NCBI RefSeq assembly: GCF_056746865.1
Contig: NZ_CM163382.1
Length of the DNA stretch: 64,000 bases
Direction: 5' to 3' (one strand)
The notes beneath the pieces were generated by a model. It searched no databases. It worked only from the letters and a program-made list of their open reading frames with translations, and was not told where the DNA came from. Position 1 is the first letter of the stretch; every line of letters begins with the position of its first letter. Positions 37,976 to 43,103 of this stretch are shown here, in pieces. Position numbers and translations under genes: made by a program.

Positions 37976-38017
37976 CAAATTGGTGCGGGGCAACCCGCAC
38001 ATTTCAGGATGTTAGGA

Positions 38018-38632
38018 ATGACCCATTTTTCACAGCAAGATAATTTTTCTGTCGCGGCGCGCGTGTTGGGCGCGCTGTTTTATTACGCTCCAGAGAGTGC
38101 GGAAGCCGCACCTCTGGTTGCGGTACTCACCCGTGACGGCTGGGAAACTCAGTGGCCTCTACCAGAAGCGTCATTAGCGCCGCTGGTGACGGCTTTTCAG
38201 GCACAGAGTGAAGAGACTCGCGCCCAGGCCTGGCAGCGTTTGTTTGTCGGTCCGTGGGCTCTGCCATCACCGCCGTGGGGGGCGGTCTGGCTGGATCGCG
38301 AATCTGTGCTGTTTGGCGATTCAACATTGGCACTTCGTCAGTGGATGCGCGAGAAAGGCATTCAGTTTGAAATGAAGCAAAACGAACCGGAAGATCATTT
38401 TGGTTCACTGCTGTTGATGGCTGCGTGGTTGGCGGAGAATGGTCGCCAGACAGAATGCGAAGAATTGCTGGCATGGCACCTTTTTCCGTGGTCAACACGT
38501 TTTCTTGACGTTTTTATCGAAAAAGCAGAACACCCTTTCTACCGTGCACTGGGTGAACTGGCTCGCTTAACGCTGGCGCAATGGCAATCACAACTGTTAA
38601 TTCCTGTCGCGGTTAAACCACTCTTTCGATAG
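38018..38632 (+). CDS. dmsD: Tat proofreading chaperone DmsD
   Basis: Start at MTHFSQQDNFS (204 aa); TorD-family; operon context. Confidence 0.92.
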   Translation: MTHFSQQDNFSVAARVLGALFYYAPESAEAAPLVAVLTRDGWETQWPLPEASLAPLVTAFQAQSEETRAQAWQRLFVGPWALPSPPWGAVWLDRESVLFGDSTLALRQWMREKGIQFEMKQNEPEDHFGSLLLMAAWLAENGRQTECEELLAWHLFPWSTRFLDVFIEKAEHPFYRALGELARLTLAQWQSQLLIPVAVKPLFR

Positions 38633-38825
38633 GATCACCGTAATATTGCCGGATGGTGTCGATTAGGCGCAATTCGGCAATAATAGGTTACAGTGTCACG
38701 TTTTTTATCTCTTAAAGCACGCACTGCTTTTGCGTCTGGCTTCTTTTGCCGCAAAATAGTCGCCCGTATTTCATTGCCCATTTCTGCTCATGCATCATCT
38801 ACACATCTATCCGGATCTGCGCACT

Positions 38826-40082
38826 ATGTTCCGCCGTCTGCTTATCGCAACAGTCGTCGGTATTCTTGCGGCCTTTGCCGTTGCCGGGTTTCGTCATGCA
38901 ATGCTGCTACTGGAGTGGTTGTTCCTCAATAATGACTCGGGCAGTCTGGTCAATGCAGCGACAAATCTTTCCCCCTGGCGACGGCTGCTAACTCCGGCGC
39001 TCGGCGGACTGGCGGCGGGTTTGTTGCTGATGGGCTGGCAGAAATTTACCCAGCAACGCCCTCATGCGCCGACCGATTACATGGAAGCGTTGCAAACCGA
39101 TGGGCAGTTTGATTACGCAGCAAGCCTGGTTAAATCCCTTGCCTCTCTGCTGGTAGTAACCAGCGGCAGTGCAATTGGTCGCGAAGGTGCGATGATTCTT
39201 TTAGCTGCCCTTGCCGCCTCCTGTTTTGCCCAACGTTTTACGCCACGCCAGGAGTGGAAATTATGGATCGCCTGTGGAGCTGCGGCGGGAATGGCTGCGG
39301 CCTATCGCGCCCCGCTTGCTGGCAGTTTATTTATAGCCGAAGTGCTGTTTGGCACTATGATGTTGGCCTCTCTCGGCCCGGTGATTATTTCCGCCGTCGT
39401 GGCATTGCTGGTTAGCAATCTGATTAATCATAGCGACGCGTTACTCTACAGTGTACAACTCTCAGTGACGGTTCAGGCTCGTGACTATGCGCTGATTATC
39501 AGTACAGGTGTGCTGGCAGGTCTGTGCGGACCACTGTTGTTAACGTTGATGAACGCCTGTCATCGTGAATTTGTAAGTCTCAAGCTTGCGCCGCCCTGGC
39601 AACTGGCACTGGGCGGGTTGATCGTGGGTCTGCTTTCCCTGTTCACACCTGCAGTGTGGGGCAACGGCTATAGCACCGTACAATCCTTTTTAACCGCTCC
39701 GCCACTGTTAATGATCATTGCCGGGATCTTCCTCTGTAAACTGTTTGCCGTGCTGGCGAGTAGTGGTTCTGGCGCGCCCGGTGGTGTCTTTACACCGACG
39801 CTATTTATCGGTCTTGCCATTGGCATGTTGTATGGTCGTAGCCTGGGATTATGGTTCCCTGATGGCGAAGAAATTACGCTTTTACTCGGATTGACCGGGA
39901 TGGCGACACTGTTGGCGGCAACCACGCACGCGCCGATTATGTCGACGTTGATGATATGTGAAATGACCGGGGAGTATCAGCTACTCCCCGGTTTATTGAT
40001 TGCCTGCGTAATTGCGTCGGTAATTTCGCGGACGTTACACCGTGACTCTATCTACCGCCAGCACACTGCGAAGCATAGCTAA
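38826..40082 (+). CDS. clcB: ClC-family voltage-gated chloride channel / H+-Cl- antiporter
   Basis: Start at [11 protein letters not shown] (418 aa); ClC selectivity-type motifs GSAIGREGA and [10 protein letters not shown]. Confidence 0.9.
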
Positions 40083-40730
40083 GCGGATGTATTGCCCCAG
40101 TTCACGCTGTTCGGCGCGCGGCAGATAAGGCAGTTCACCAATGAGCGGTGCCGGAAGTTTTTTACCGAGCACATCAATGATTTCCGCATAATGCGCCAGT
40201 CCTGGATTGATTCGGTTAGCCACCCAGCCAATGAGCGGTAGCCCGTCGTTGGCGATCGCCTGAGCTGTTAGCAGTGCATGGTTAATGCAACCTTCCTGAA
40301 TACCGACAACCATCAACACCGGCAGTTGTTCCTGCACCACCCATTCAGAGAGCGGACGCAAATCATTCATCAGACTGCGCCAGCCGCCAGTCCCTTCTAC
40401 CACGACATGATCGACTTTATCGGTCAGGTTTGCCAGGCCGTTTGAAATGAGGGTGTAATTGATTGGGCAACTGTGCGCCACGCTACTTTCTTCTTCGCTT
40501 AACGCGATAGGATTAACTGCTTCATAAGGCAGTTCGATGGTTGAAACACTCTGCAACACCAGGGCATCTTTATTACGCAGCCCTTCGGGTGTCTCTTTGC
40601 TCCCCTTCGCTACGGGTTTATATCCCGCAACCGTTTTTCCCTGGGAGGCTAACGCTTGTAGCAATGCGCGGGAAACCACCGTTTTCCCTACAGAAGTGTC
40701 TGTACCGGTAATAAAGAAACGCTTCAGCAT
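40035..40730 (-). CDS. ynfK: dethiobiotin synthetase paralog (BioD-like ATPase)
   Basis: Start at [17 protein letters not shown] (P-loop); 231 aa; its 3' end overlaps the clcB 3' end by 48 bp (convergent). Confidence 0.9.
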
Positions 40731-40854
40731 CACTAACTCCACCGTTATGCTTCACAAATATAAACCAGGAAAATAATTAACCTTGAAAGTCTAAGTTATG
40801 CTTTCCTGGCCCAAATTGAGATAGCGCAAATTTTGGTAGAACAGTTAAAAAATG

Positions 40855-42075
40855 TTAACCCTGCAACAGACGAATCAACAAAGAACCGTTATACATCGCG
40901 TCTTTTACCAGCGCAGCCCCTGCCATCGTGCCCTGGTTAGAAAACTGAGTACTCTCAACGCTAATGTGCTGACTATACGCAGGAAGGGCCTGCTGACGGA
41001 TGCTATCTGAGATGACCGGGAAGAGGATATCTGCCGCTTTACTTAACGGTGAGCCAATCAGTATTTTTTGTGGGTTAAATAAATTCACCATGATGGCAAG
41101 AATGCGCCCTACATGCGCGCCCACCCCGGTAATGATGTCTTTTGCCAGCAGATCGCCGCGCAATGCCGCCTGACACAATGAGTCCACGGTTAACGGTTGT
41201 CCATGTAACATCGAGCTCATGGATTGATTGAGACGCAGCTGTGCCAGCTCAAGAATACTGTCCACACTGGCGATGGTTTCGAGGCAGCCGTGATTCCCGC
41301 AATAACAGCGTTTCCCATACGGGTCGACCTGCGTGTGACCTATTTCCACAAGGCTACTGCTGCCTACGTGTAGCAGATGACCATCGGTAATGACGCCCGC
41401 CCCCACGTTGTGATCGATAACCACCTGAATCACATCGCGCGCCCCGCGTGAGGCACCAAACAAGGCCTCAGCCATCGTCCATGCGCTGATATCATGCTGA
41501 ATATAAACCGGTACGCCGGTATGCTGCTCCAGCGCCTCGCCGAGCGGCATCTCTTTTACATCCTCGTAGAACGGCATGCGATGTACAATACCATTTTCCG
41601 TATCAATAATTCCCGGCAAGGTAATGGCAATCGAAGTCAGACGCTCAAGTTTTTTCTGGTGGCGGATAAAAAACTGATCGATATGGGAAATGATACGATC
41701 CAGCAATGGTGAGTCATCTTTTAACGCCAGTTCCTGCGCCTCCTCCACCACCAGTTTGCTGCTCAGATCGCGCAGAGCAAGGAAAATCTCCCCGCGACTA
41801 ATGCGCAGAGAAAGATAGTGCCAGGCTTCAGTTTCAACCACCAGCCCCACTGCCGGACGGCCACGGTTCCCCGCTTCTTTGATTTCCAGCTCTTGCACCA
41901 GGTGTGCTTCGAGCATCTCACGGACAATTTTAGTGATACTGGCAGGAGCCAGCTGCGCCAGACGGGAAAGATCGATACGCGAGACTGGACCAAGCTGATC
42001 AATCAGGCGATAAACCGCGCCCGCGTTGGTCTGCTTTATTTGATCAATGTGCCCAGGCTGATTTTCAGCAACCAC
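40855..42075 (-). CDS. mlc: ROK-family global glucose regulator Mlc (DgsA)
   Basis: 406-aa ORF with an N-terminal HTH and ROK sugar-kinase-like fold with zinc cysteines (CYCGNHGC). Confidence 0.93.
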   Translation of the reverse strand: MVAENQPGHIDQIKQTNAGAVYRLIDQLGPVSRIDLSRLAQLAPASITKIVREMLEAHLVQELEIKEAGNRGRPAVGLVVETEAWHYLSLRISRGEIFLALRDLSSKLVVEEAQELALKDDSPLLDRIISHIDQFFIRHQKKLERLTSIAITLPGIIDTENGIVHRMPFYEDVKEMPLGEALEQHTGVPVYIQHDISAWTMAEALFGASRGARDVIQVVIDHNVGAGVITDGHLLHVGSSSLVEIGHTQVDPYGKRCYCGNHGCLETIASVDSILELAQLRLNQSMSSMLHGQPLTVDSLCQAALRGDLLAKDIITGVGAHVGRILAIMVNLFNPQKILIGSPLSKAADILFPVISDSIRQQALPAYSQHISVESTQFSNQGTMAGAALVKDAMYNGSLLIRLLQG

Positions 42076-42209
42076 CGCATACTCCCTATATTTTCGCGCT
42101 CCGAAATAATCTGTAGGCTATGGTGAAGCACTTCAATACGTGTCGTCAAATTTTTACTTAGGCATGTGATTAACAGCACATTTTTCGGGCTTTTTCGCTG
42201 AAATTTCCC

Positions 42210-43103
42210 TCACCTGAGAGCATTCAGCAGATGAATACGAAAGTTACGCGCAGCCGGACTTTGTTCATGGTGTTTCGGCCAGACCAACCACATTTCAGAA
42301 ACCGCATCCTCTTCAGCAATCGGCACCCAGCGCATTTCGTTGAGCTGAACACGTTTAAATGACGCAGGCAAAATTGAAACACCCAGACCAGCGGAAACCA
42401 GACCGATGATGGTCATTGCCTCACCCACCTCCTGAGTGATGACGGGCGTCAAATTGTAACGTCGCATCAGCCCGAGAATATCGTCATACAGCCCTGTCCC
42501 TACGTGCGGATCAAAAAAGACAAAGGGTTCTTTCGCCAGTTCAGCCAGCGTTACACTCGGGTTATTTGCCAGGGGATGATCGTGCGGGATCATCGCCATA
42601 AGCGGTTCATGGACGATGACTGCGTGTTCAAGCGTCTCCGGTAACGCTGTGTTACGCAGCAATCCCATATCCAGCGTTCCTTCAATGAGCGGAGCGATTT
42701 GCTCGCGAGTGTTCATTTCGCGGGTTTGTAAATGGACATCGGGATAATCACGGCGAAACAGCGATAACGTATCGGACACCGCCCGAATAAAAGGAGCGGA
42801 CGAAGTAAAACCAATGCGCAACTCCCCCGCTTCGCCCTGATGCAGCCTTTCAGCGCGAGCGGCAGCATCATCCACCATAGACAAGATTTGCCGACTATCT
42901 ACAAGAAACTGTTTTCCTGCTGCCGTCAGCAATACACTGCGATTGGTCCGTGCCAGCAGTCGGGCACCAATTTGTTGCTCCAGCGCCTGAATCTGTTGAC
43001 TTAGCGGTGGTTGCGAAATATTCAGGCGGGCAGCGGCGCGCCCGAAATGCAGCTCTTCTGCAACCGCAACAAAGTAACGCAGATGACGAAGTTCAATATT
43101 CAT
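42210..43103 (-). CDS. ynfL: LysR-family transcriptional regulator
   Basis: 297-aa ORF with an N-terminal HTH (MNIELRHLRYFVAVAEELHFGRAAARLNISQPPLSQQIQALE); divergent from ynfM. Confidence 0.88.
   Translation of the reverse strand: MNIELRHLRYFVAVAEELHFGRAAARLNISQPPLSQQIQALEQQIGARLLARTNRSVLLTAAGKQFLVDSRQILSMVDDAAARAERLHQGEAGELRIGFTSSAPFIRAVSDTLSLFRRDYPDVHLQTREMNTREQIAPLIEGTLDMGLLRNTALPETLEHAVIVHEPLMAMIPHDHPLANNPSVTLAELAKEPFVFFDPHVGTGLYDDILGLMRRYNLTPVITQEVGEAMTIIGLVSAGLGVSILPASFKRVQLNEMRWVPIAEEDAVSEMWLVWPKHHEQSPAARNFRIHLLNALR

What the first reader, a model, noticed from the sequence alone, without database searches (positions are those of the whole stretch)
40035..40082. Convergent 48-bp coding overlap between clcB and ynfK
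The last 16 codons of clcB (plus strand) and the last 16 codons of ynfK (minus strand) share the same DNA. Convergent overlaps of this length constrain both C-termini and can cause transcriptional interference. One of the two annotated C-terminal tails may not be under protein-level selection.
Basis: seen in the sequence. Interest (0 to 1): 0.2.

Follow-up and report, generated by a model that had tools for sequence, protein, structure and literature searches.

The report
Conserved clcB–ynfK convergent gene overlap
Two real E. coli genes on opposite strands share their last 48 bases, an already annotated arrangement kept across the enterobacterial family; the chloride-channel gene also carries a conserved hairpin inside its coding sequence that probably shapes the 3' end of its neighbour's mRNA.

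Summary
clcB (38790-40082, +) and ynfK/bidA (40035-40730, -) share 40035-40082, with each ClcB codon the exact reverse complement of a YnfK codon. It is not an annotation artefact: stop codons fix both ends, and PGAP and the K-12 record annotate the same overlap. The pair is already listed as a convergent "excludon".

Across 80 Enterobacteriaceae loci, YnfK is always 231 codons. This holds even in 17 loci where clcB is lost or reduced to a remnant. The ClcB stop drifts, giving overlaps of 27, 39, 45, 48 or 66 nt. So YnfK's 11-residue tail beyond the BioD fold is under its own protein-level selection, and only ClcB's last ~6 residues look dispensable.

The more interesting feature lies outside the given coordinates. 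A 9-11 bp hairpin inside clcB (39966-39992) sits 42 nt past the ynfK stop. It has frozen synonymous sites and a compensatory G-C/C-G swap, and it persists in most lineages that lost clcB, twice gaining a U-tract.

It most likely forms or protects the ynfK mRNA 3' end together with Rho; this function is inferred, not shown. Overall this is ordinary in kind, a well-documented instance of a known arrangement.

The parts
38790..40082 (+). clcB CDS (430-aa PGAP form; the K-12 annotation starts at 38826, 418 aa)
   Evidence: ORF. PGAP annotation. NCBIfam equivalog NF002437 ClcB, 863 bits against a cut-off of 425. Pfam Voltage_CLC.
40035..40730 (-). ynfK (= bidA, second dethiobiotin synthetase) CDS, 231 aa
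   Evidence: TIGR00347 bioD, 134 bits against a cut-off of 83. Residues 3-220 align to E. coli BioD structure 1a82 end to end.
40035..40082 (.). 48-nt dual-coding overlap with codons in register (phase 123:321)
   Evidence: Codon-pair table.
40038..40070 (-). YnfK residues 221-231, an extension specific to the Enterobacteriaceae clade beyond the BioD fold (consensus GxVLxVDRVxA)
   Evidence: BioD1 ends at YnfK L220. More distant BioD relatives have unrelated tails of 3-14 residues. Length and the D227/R228/A231 motif are kept in clcB-less loci.
40029..40061 (+). Conserved ClcB juxtamembrane tail R-T-L-x-x-D-S-I-Y-R-Q
   Evidence: Conserved in 60 orthologues. The ClcA equivalog profile aligns up to ClcB residue 412.
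40062..40079 (+). Variable last six ClcB residues (HTAKHS); the stop position drifts among genera
   Evidence: overlaps of 27 nt (3 loci), 39 (1), 45 (15), 48 (33), 66 (11).
39966..39992 (-). Conserved hairpin inside the clcB CDS. Arms are 39992-39982 and 39976-39966 (core 9 bp), loop 39981-39977. It encodes Clc[10 protein letters not shown] and starts 42 nt downstream of the ynfK stop
   Evidence: dG -21.5 kcal/mol, z -6.7. 93% of cells paired; pair 29/43 is C-G in 33 and G-C in 22 sequences. Thr ACC and Pro CCC are the only zero-entropy codons among 162 conserved codons of at least 4-fold degeneracy. Retained after clcB loss. Single copy per E. coli genome.
39966..40034 (-). Inferred ynfK 3' UTR, fully antisense to clcB codons
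   Evidence: Inference from the hairpin position. A Rho termination region is reported at K-12 1666514, which is window 40025, minus strand.
39993..39995 (+). ClcB Leu codon abutting the hairpin, unusually TTA/TTG (85%)
   Evidence: Rank 1 of 46 conserved Leu columns for TTR usage. Unexplained.

Best explanation
This is a genuine, ancient tail-to-tail dual-coding overlap between two functional genes. Shown: the codons are in register, so each gene's stop codon is the reverse complement of a Leu codon of the other, and each protein restricts the other's codon choice. Shown: the family-conserved parts of the two proteins do not overlap each other. YnfK's clade-specific 11-residue extension lies over ClcB's conserved RTLxxDSIYRQ, and ClcB's variable last six residues lie over the end of YnfK's BioD fold. 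Inferred: the overlap arose by tail extension or stop-codon drift and was then fixed. Because there is no intergenic DNA, each gene's mRNA 3'-end signals must lie inside the partner gene. Shown: a G+C-rich hairpin within clcB (39966-39992), 42 nt past the ynfK stop, is under nucleotide-level selection independent of ClcB coding. Inferred: it is the 3'-end element of the ynfK mRNA. It would act as a stable stem-loop without a U-tract that, together with Rho-dependent termination just downstream, defines and protects the transcript end. This also limits how far FNR-induced ynfK transcription runs antisense into clcB. No comparable conserved structure exists for clcB inside ynfK, so clcB transcripts probably end by Rho or collision.
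For: Overlap and annotation. Conservation: ynfK is 231 codons in all 80 loci, and clcB-containing loci have overlaps of 27-66 nt. Reciprocal constraint and release: with clcB present, YnfK 226 is GTA/ATA in 63/63 (opposite Tyr), R228 is AGA/CGA (opposite Ser TCT/TCG), and the stop is TAA/TAG (opposite Leu TTA/CTA). Without clcB these become Ala GCC/GCG (9/13), Arg CGC/CGT and TGA, while D227, R228, A231 and the length are kept. Domain limits: BioD1 ends at YnfK L220, and the ClcA profile reaches ClcB Q412. Hairpin stability: -21.5 kcal/mol, z -6.7. Hairpin pairing: 93% of cells paired versus 20-44% when the 3' partners are slid. Covariation: G-C/C-G covariation couples a Glu/Gln replacement with a synonymous Leu change, with at least two independent swaps on the ynfK tree. 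Synonymous constraint: of 162 conserved codons of at least 4-fold degeneracy in clcB, only Thr ACC (60/60) and the rare Pro CCC (60/60) in the two arms have zero synonymous entropy. The lowest synonymous-entropy window of the whole gene is 39948-39990. Natural experiment: about 11 inferred independent clcB losses. The hairpin core is kept in about 7 of them, the former coding spacer is deleted, and in two C. amalonaticus lineages the tail becomes T7-T8, i.e. a canonical terminator. Other clcB-less lineages, such as Kosakonia, carry an unrelated canonical terminator right after the ynfK stop. Literature: a Rho termination region on the ynfK strand at K-12 1666514, with read ratios 85/11 without bicyclomycin (BCM) and 292/159 with it (PMC7815308). 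Rho-dependent transcripts end at stable stem-loops lacking U-tracts (PMC6061677). ynfK is directly FNR-activated (PMC3688515). clcB-bidA is listed as a convergent excludon (PMC12288877). No synonymous-constraint dip occurs in the 3' half of ynfK, and there is no significant structure after the clcB stop (z +0.8).
Against: No 3' end at the hairpin was called in the curated Term-seq tables of PMC7815308, though ynfK is poorly expressed aerobically. The Rho-region coordinate comes from 800-nt windows, so it does not place the end precisely. Strand assignment is unresolved: mean predicted stability is identical on both strands (-17.7 kcal/mol). The loop-proximal pair and the TTR-rich Leu402 codon favour the clcB-sense strand, while 45 G-U cells in the 9-bp core favour the ynfK-sense strand. 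The C/G ratio downstream on the minus strand is only 1.2-1.5, a weak rut signature. Covariation rests on essentially one pair with few independent events. The AlphaFold model of YnfK is poor (pLDDT 67.5; tail residues 225-231 below 50) and says nothing about the tail's role.
Confidence: 0.6

Rival explanations
1. The hairpin is a bidirectional terminator or pause site that acts on both strands, of the RNAP-collision type or as a conditional intrinsic terminator. In the clcB sense it would stop untranslated read-through, for example from the FNR-induced ynfEFGH-dmsD operon upstream, 90 nt before the clcB stop. Ribosome-coupled transcription of clcB would pass through.
For: In E. coli the plus-strand hairpin is followed by UUUAUUGAUUG and is called terminator-like. 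The Leu codon abutting the stem is TTA/TTG in 85% of sequences, rank 1 of 46 Leu columns. The hairpin is equally stable on both strands. After clcB loss it sits between convergent genes with an A-tract on one side and a T-tract on the other. No terminator-like or promoter-like site lies between dmsD and clcB. The collision model requires a hairpin in the overlapping zone (bioRxiv 10.1101/2022.10.23.513370).
Against: The plus-strand U-tract is not conserved across genera. Termination there would truncate the clcB mRNA. Published data indicate Rho dependence on the ynfK strand, whereas collision-type terminators are described as Rho-independent. In the clcB-sense RNA, 45 core cells would be A-C mismatches.
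Confidence: 0.2
2. The hairpin acts within the clcB mRNA itself, as a translational pause during insertion of the last transmembrane helix or as an mRNA stability element. It would have nothing to do with ynfK.
For: It lies in the clcB CDS, folds stably in the clcB-sense RNA, and encodes the conserved helix-R motif.
Against: It is retained in about 7 lineages where clcB is deleted or a pseudogene, while the flanking clcB sequence decays or is deleted. In the clcB-sense RNA the hairpin weakens to -8 to -11 kcal/mol in several species, whereas the ynfK-sense hairpin is never weaker than -13.7.
Confidence: 0.07
3. The palindrome is a DNA site for a dimeric DNA-binding protein rather than an RNA structure.
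For: It is a perfect 11-bp inverted repeat in E. coli, and the G-C/C-G swap also preserves DNA symmetry.
Against: Many one-sided transitions that break DNA symmetry but keep G-U pairing are tolerated: 45 cells in the core. Loop length and sequence vary freely. After clcB loss it gains U-tracts, the hallmark of RNA terminators.
Confidence: 0.05
4. The overlap is an annotation artefact, or one of the two tails is untranslated or non-functional.
For: YnfK residues 221-231 lie beyond the solved BioD fold and are predicted with low confidence. The last six ClcB residues are variable, and three loci truncate them.
Against: Stops are unambiguous and conserved. YnfK tail length and the D-R motif survive clcB loss with codon turnover. 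ClcB's DSIYRQ lies inside the overlap and is family-conserved. The minimal overlap is still 27 nt.
Confidence: 0.03

Closest known systems
Convergent (tail-to-tail) overlapping gene pairs of E. coli (Lillo & Krakauer 2007, PMC2174442)
   Same: It is one of about 58 convergent overlaps in E. coli. Phase 123:321 is a common class (32-33% of overlaps longer than 4 nt). Origin by stop-codon drift fits. That paper already notes that terminators of such genes must lie in the partner's coding sequence.
   Different: At 48 nt it is far longer than the modal 4-nt overlap. Here the overlap is traced across a whole bacterial family, with natural clcB-loss controls.
Convergent excludons (ExcludonFinder, NAR 2025, PMC12288877)
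   Same: clcB-bidA is explicitly listed among the 165 convergent excludons of MG1655, i.e. overlapping transcription is seen in at least 50% of transcriptomes.
   Different: Classical excludons overlap in their UTRs, whereas here the coding sequences themselves overlap. A reciprocal expression effect for this pair has not been shown.
Protective 3' stem-loops of Rho-dependent transcripts (Dar & Sorek 2018, PMC6061677)
   Same: A stable stem-loop without a U-tract lies shortly after the stop, and Rho-dependent read-through is reported for this 3' region.
   Different: The stem-loop is embedded in, and constrained by, the coding sequence of another gene. No steady-state 3' end has yet been mapped at it.
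Bidirectional terminators between convergent genes (Ju et al. 2019; Wang et al. preprint 10.1101/2022.10.23.513370)
   Same: A hairpin lies in the zone where convergent transcription units meet. After clcB loss it behaves like a typical A-tract/hairpin/T-tract bidirectional terminator.
   Different: In genomes that keep clcB it lies 90 nt upstream of the clcB stop, so it cannot be clcB's productive terminator. Rho dependence is reported for this region.
E. coli BioD (dethiobiotin synthetase, PDB 1a82/1dad)
   Same: YnfK aligns over residues 3-220 to the whole of BioD (E 5e-65).
   Different: YnfK carries an extra 11-residue C-terminal tail, and it is this tail that makes most of the overlap.

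Membership tests
Convergent overlapping protein-coding gene pair | Two ORFs on opposite strands share nucleotides at their 3' ends | tested here: met
   40035-40082 is shared.
Convergent overlapping protein-coding gene pair | Both ORFs are bona fide genes of known protein families | tested here: met
   ClcB equivalog 863 bits and bioD equivalog 134 bits, both above their cut-offs. Pfam hits. PDB homologues.
Convergent overlapping protein-coding gene pair | Both stop positions, and hence the overlap, are conserved in orthologues | tested here: met
   The ynfK stop is fixed in 80/80 loci. The clcB stop lies 27-66 nt inside ynfK in 63/63 clcB-containing sequences.
Convergent overlapping protein-coding gene pair | Both proteins are translated to the annotated C-termini | not testable with these tools
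   Needs proteomics or ribosome profiling.
Convergent excludon | Transcripts of the two genes overlap in vivo | not testable with these tools
   Literature only: clcB-bidA is in the MG1655 excludome list (PMC12288877).
Convergent excludon | Expression of one gene lowers the other (interference or RNase III cleavage) | not tested
   No data found. clcB (b1592) is absent from the FNR differential-expression tables, while ynfK is 16-fold FNR-dependent.
Intrinsic (Rho-independent) terminator | G+C-rich stem-loop | tested here: met
   11-bp stem, -21.5 kcal/mol.
Intrinsic (Rho-independent) terminator | U-tract directly after the stem on the terminated (ynfK-sense) strand | tested here: not met
   The tail is CAUUUCACAU, and the scan found no minus-strand terminator. 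A U-tract appears only after clcB loss (L009, L016).
Intrinsic (Rho-independent) terminator | Termination independent of Rho | tested here: inconclusive
   Published bicyclomycin (BCM) data show Rho-dependent read-through in this region: 0.13 rising to 0.54.
Protective 3' stem-loop of a Rho-dependent transcript | Stable stem-loop lacking a U-tract downstream of the stop | tested here: met
Protective 3' stem-loop of a Rho-dependent transcript | Rho-dependent termination of the transcript | tested here: inconclusive
   Literature table: Rho score 4.2, p 1.5e-6 at K-12 1666514, but at 800-nt resolution.
Protective 3' stem-loop of a Rho-dependent transcript | Steady-state 3' end immediately 3' of the stem | tested here: inconclusive
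   No such end appears in the curated Term-seq tables searched. Those conditions were aerobic, whereas ynfK is FNR-induced.
Protective 3' stem-loop of a Rho-dependent transcript | C-rich, G-poor rut region just downstream | tested here: inconclusive
   C/G is 1.2-1.5 over the next 200 nt on the minus strand.
Collision-type bidirectional terminator | The hairpin lies in the region transcribed from both sides, and 3' ends of both transcripts flank it | tested here: inconclusive
   The location fits, but a clcB-sense end here would truncate the CDS. No 3'-end data are available.

The most novel reading that the evidence does not exclude
The hairpin embedded in clcB could be a translation-gated, two-way insulator between two FNR-induced convergent units (ynfEFGH-dmsD reading through into clcB, and ynfK). 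In the ynfK sense it would set the mRNA 3' end. In the clcB sense it would terminate only RNA polymerases not closely followed by a ribosome. Full-length clcB mRNA would then be made only when clcB is being translated, and anaerobic induction of ynfK would down-tune ClcB.
Probability: 0.12. Interest if true: 0.55.

Novelty: new member of a known kind. Interest (0 to 1): 0.3.

Why it matters
The overlap itself is already annotated and catalogued, so it changes nothing on its own. The comparative picture is a clean worked example of how convergent overlapping genes coexist. Each protein's dispensable-looking tail lies over the other's conserved end, and each stop codon is pinned by a Leu codon of the partner. 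The repeated natural loss of clcB shows which constraints belong to which gene. It also shows that a neighbour's 3'-end RNA structure can freeze synonymous sites, and even steer a Glu/Gln replacement, inside a membrane-protein gene. That matters for reading synonymous constraint, for recoding or refactoring E. coli genomes, and for deleting clcB without disturbing ynfK.

Tried and rejected
1. Rfam scan of 38000-42500 at E up to 1 gave no known RNA family.
2. A test for a repeated element (REP-like) was negative: the 49-nt hairpin region occurs once per E. coli genome.
3. Strand assignment by comparing predicted stability of the two RNA strands gave no difference (-17.7 versus -17.7 kcal/mol, p 0.79).
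4. A search for a reciprocal clcB terminator inside ynfK found no synonymous-constraint dip and no significant fold.
5. AlphaFold2 on YnfK with a shallow alignment gave pLDDT 67.5 with the tail below 50, so it was not used further and no fold search was run.
6. Supplements of Dar & Sorek 2018 and of ExcludonFinder are not held, and Ju et al. 2019 could not be retrieved.
7. The ClcB homologue search returned only close Enterobacteriaceae orthologues. The planned control, clcB orthologues not adjacent to ynfK, could not be done.
8. My first overlap table over-called L059 as 240 nt, and L003 and L062 as 48 nt, because in-frame stops inside the BLAST hit were skipped. All three were corrected to 27 nt.
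9. The 'annotation artefact' reading was considered and rejected (see rival explanations).

Full report
OBSERVATION. The window is E. coli. The 2.2-kb stretch around the finding is 100% identical to NZ_CP030768 and is present in 5415 of 5426 complete E. coli genomes. Mechanical ORF listing gives clcB at 38790-40082 (+) and ynfK at 40035-40742 (-). PGAP annotates clcB at the same coordinates and ynfK (named bioD there) with its start at window 40730, so the two CDS share 48 nt. The K-12 record has the same arrangement, with clcB at 1665315-1666571 and bidA (b1593, formerly ynfK) at 1666524-1667219.

Reading the sequence shows the frames are in register. Every ClcB codon in 40035-40082 is the reverse complement of a YnfK codon. 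The ynfK stop TAA lies opposite ClcB Leu TTA, and the clcB stop TAA lies opposite YnfK Leu217 TTA. In this phase, antisense stops arise only opposite TTA/CTA/TCA codons. These make up 3.8% of codons in four local genes, so 15 open codons is not unusual (P about 0.56). The length alone is therefore not remarkable. Because C-termini are fixed by stop codons, the overlap cannot be an annotation choice.

BOTH GENES ARE REAL. ClcB matches its NCBIfam equivalog at 863 bits (cut-off 425) and YnfK matches bioD at 134 bits (cut-off 83). Pfam and PDB searches agree. ynfK is directly activated by FNR (PMC3688515).

COMPARATIVE ANALYSIS. A scan of one genome per species with a YnfK alignment returned 80 loci across Enterobacteriaceae. 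They include Escherichia, Salmonella, Citrobacter, Klebsiella, Raoultella, Enterobacter, Kluyvera, Kosakonia and Buttiauxella, among others.
- YnfK is exactly 231 codons in all 80 loci.
- clcB is convergent and overlapping in 62 of them (63 sequences with the window), with overlaps of 27 nt (3), 39 (1), 45 (15), 48 (33) and 66 (11).
- clcB is absent in 13 loci and reduced to a 3' remnant in 4.
- On a ynfK tree, clcB-containing taxa occur throughout, including basal Buttiauxella. The absences are best read as about 11 independent losses (inference; remnants prove it directly for some).

WHICH TAIL IS SELECTED? The solved E. coli BioD structure ends at the residue aligned to YnfK L220. YnfK 221-231 is therefore an extension. 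More distant BioD relatives have unrelated tails of 3-14 residues. The extension is less conserved than the body, with pairwise identity 0.60 versus 0.91.

The clcB-less lineages nevertheless keep its length and the L224, D227, R228 and A231 residues while changing the codons. Arg AGA/CGA becomes CGT/CGC, Ala GCG becomes GCC, and the stop TAA/TAG becomes TGA. Val226, which is forced to GTA/ATA opposite ClcB Tyr in 63/63 sequences, becomes Ala in 9/13. This is direct evidence for protein-level selection on the YnfK tail, and for constraints imposed by ClcB that relax once clcB is gone.

On the ClcB side, R-T-L-x-x-D-S-I-Y-R-Q is conserved and alignable to the ClcA equivalog profile up to residue 412. 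The last six residues vary and the stop drifts. Three loci stop right after SIY(R/H).

The family-conserved parts of the two proteins thus do not overlap each other. Each protein's less-constrained tail lies over the other's conserved end. This fits origin by stop-codon drift, the mechanism favoured for convergent overlaps by Lillo & Krakauer (PMC2174442).

THE EMBEDDED HAIRPIN (outside the given coordinates). With no intergenic DNA, ynfK's 3'-end signals must lie inside clcB. The terminator scan flagged an inverted repeat at 39965-39993. It folds at -21.5 kcal/mol, with z -6.7 on the ynfK-sense strand.

Evidence for selection on the structure itself:
- In an ungapped alignment of 63 sequences, the 9-11 bp stem is paired in 93% of cells, against 20-44% when the 3' partners are slid.
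- One pair covaries: C-G in 33 sequences and G-C in 22. This couples a Glu/Gln replacement in ClcB with a synonymous Leu CTC/CTG change. The ynfK tree implies at least two independent swaps.
- Among 162 conserved codon columns of at least 4-fold degeneracy in clcB, only two have zero synonymous variation. These are Thr ACC (60/60) and the rare Pro CCC (60/60), one in each arm. The next lowest entropy is 0.41 bits.
- The lowest synonymous-entropy window of the whole gene is 39948-39990, as low as the dual-coding overlap itself.
- In E. coli the 49-nt region is single copy and identical in 5295 of 5417 genomes.

The clcB-loss lineages give the strongest evidence. The hairpin core CCGGG(G/C)AG...CT(C/G)CCCGG persists in L011, L022, L053, L058, L046, L057, L016 and L009. 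Meanwhile the former coding spacer between the ynfK stop and the stem has been deleted by 15-35 nt. In L016 and L009 the tail TCATTTCAC has become T7-T8, which makes a canonical intrinsic (bidirectional) terminator. Other clcB-less lineages, such as Kosakonia, carry an unrelated canonical terminator right after the ynfK stop. ynfK shows no comparable constrained structure in its 3' half, and the RNA after the clcB stop is not significantly structured.

MECHANISM. Published DirectRNA-seq with and without bicyclomycin (BCM) reports a Rho termination region on the minus strand at K-12 1666514, which is window 40025. It is classified as 'primary ynfK / antisense clcB'. The downstream/upstream read ratio rises from 0.13 to 0.54 with BCM (PMC7815308). 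Dar & Sorek showed that Rho-dependent transcripts end at stable stem-loops lacking U-tracts, which protect them from 3' exonucleases (PMC6061677).

The ynfK-sense hairpin has exactly that form, with the tail CAUUUCAC fixed by ClcB's C-E-M-T codons. My best reading (inferred, confidence about 0.55-0.6 for this step) is that the hairpin is the ynfK mRNA 3'-end stem-loop working with Rho. It also limits FNR-driven antisense transcription into clcB.

Caveats:
- No Term-seq 3' end was called there under aerobic conditions.
- Predicted stability is equal on both strands.
- The Leu codon abutting the stem is TTA/TTG in 85% of sequences, rank 1 of 46. This gives a partial U-tract on the clcB-sense strand.

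A bidirectional or translation-gated role therefore remains possible. It would be in line with the RNAP-collision model for convergent genes, and with the absence of any terminator-like site between the FNR-induced dmsD and clcB.

WHAT IS KNOWN. The overlap is in RefSeq and the K-12 record. clcB-bidA is listed among the 165 convergent excludons of MG1655 (PMC12288877). The general point that terminators of convergently overlapping genes must sit in the partner's CDS was made in 2007. I found no description of this particular hairpin, its covariation or its survival after clcB loss. The literature tools cover open-access papers only.

VERDICT. The overlap is ordinary in kind and already known. 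The embedded, selectively maintained 3'-end hairpin is a new, well-supported instance of a known kind. Interest is modest (0.3).

Noticed in passing
window 38790-38825: The clcB start differs between annotations: PGAP uses 38790 (430 aa) and K-12 uses 38826 (418 aa). tBLASTn hits in other genera begin at residue 1 of the long form. The NCBIfam ClcB profile has 11 extra N-terminal positions. The first codons show high synonymous variation with conserved residues. All of this suggests the longer form is the real one.
   Followed up: partly
window 39993-39995 (ClcB Leu directly 3' of the hairpin): The Leu codon is TTA/TTG in 85% of 60 orthologues, against a mean of 24% over 46 Leu columns. TTA is also the reverse complement of an in-frame TAA in the ynfK frame, which would be a back-up stop 14 codons past the real one. 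The cause is unknown: a U-tract, an A-tract or a back-up stop are all possible.
   Followed up: partly
window 40712-40730 (ynfK codons 1-6): Synonymous variation is very low at the 5' end of ynfK (Arg4 is CGT in 80/80 loci). This is probably a constraint from the translation-initiation region.
   Followed up: no
window 38633-38789 (dmsD-clcB spacer): The simple scan finds no terminator-like or sigma-70-like site here. clcB may be reached by read-through from the FNR-activated ynfEFGH-dmsD operon, which would make both sides of the convergent pair anaerobically driven.
   Followed up: partly
L036, L013, L070 (genome contigs records): Record titles disagree with sequence placement. 'Chryseobacterium sp. 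18061' (L036) carries a typical Enterobacteriaceae ynfK-clcB locus. 'uncultured Raoultella' (L013) groups with Citrobacter braakii. 'Escherichia sp. ESNIH1' (L070) groups with Pseudescherichia. These are likely contamination or mislabelling.
   Followed up: no
L009, L016, L032, L057, L058, L071 (downstream of ynfK): In several clcB-less loci the convergent neighbour is a 382-aa ABC-transporter ATPase ending ...SGRTRRALNIH. In L058 it abuts a 56-codon clcB remnant, which suggests that replacement of clcB by this operon is one route of loss.
   Followed up: partly
one search hit list (E. coli ClcB variants): Many E. coli and Shigella ClcB database entries are 377-405 aa at about 93% identity instead of 418/430 aa. 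This hints at frequent internal deletions or alternative starts (possible pseudogenisation) within the species. L003 (E. coli E69) has a premature TAG six codons before the normal stop.
   Followed up: no
window 39951-39980, minus strand: A weak sigma-70-like match (CTGATA-18-TATCAT, 9/12) overlaps the hairpin loop. It is probably chance: 3 such sites were found in the region against 1.1 expected.
   Followed up: no
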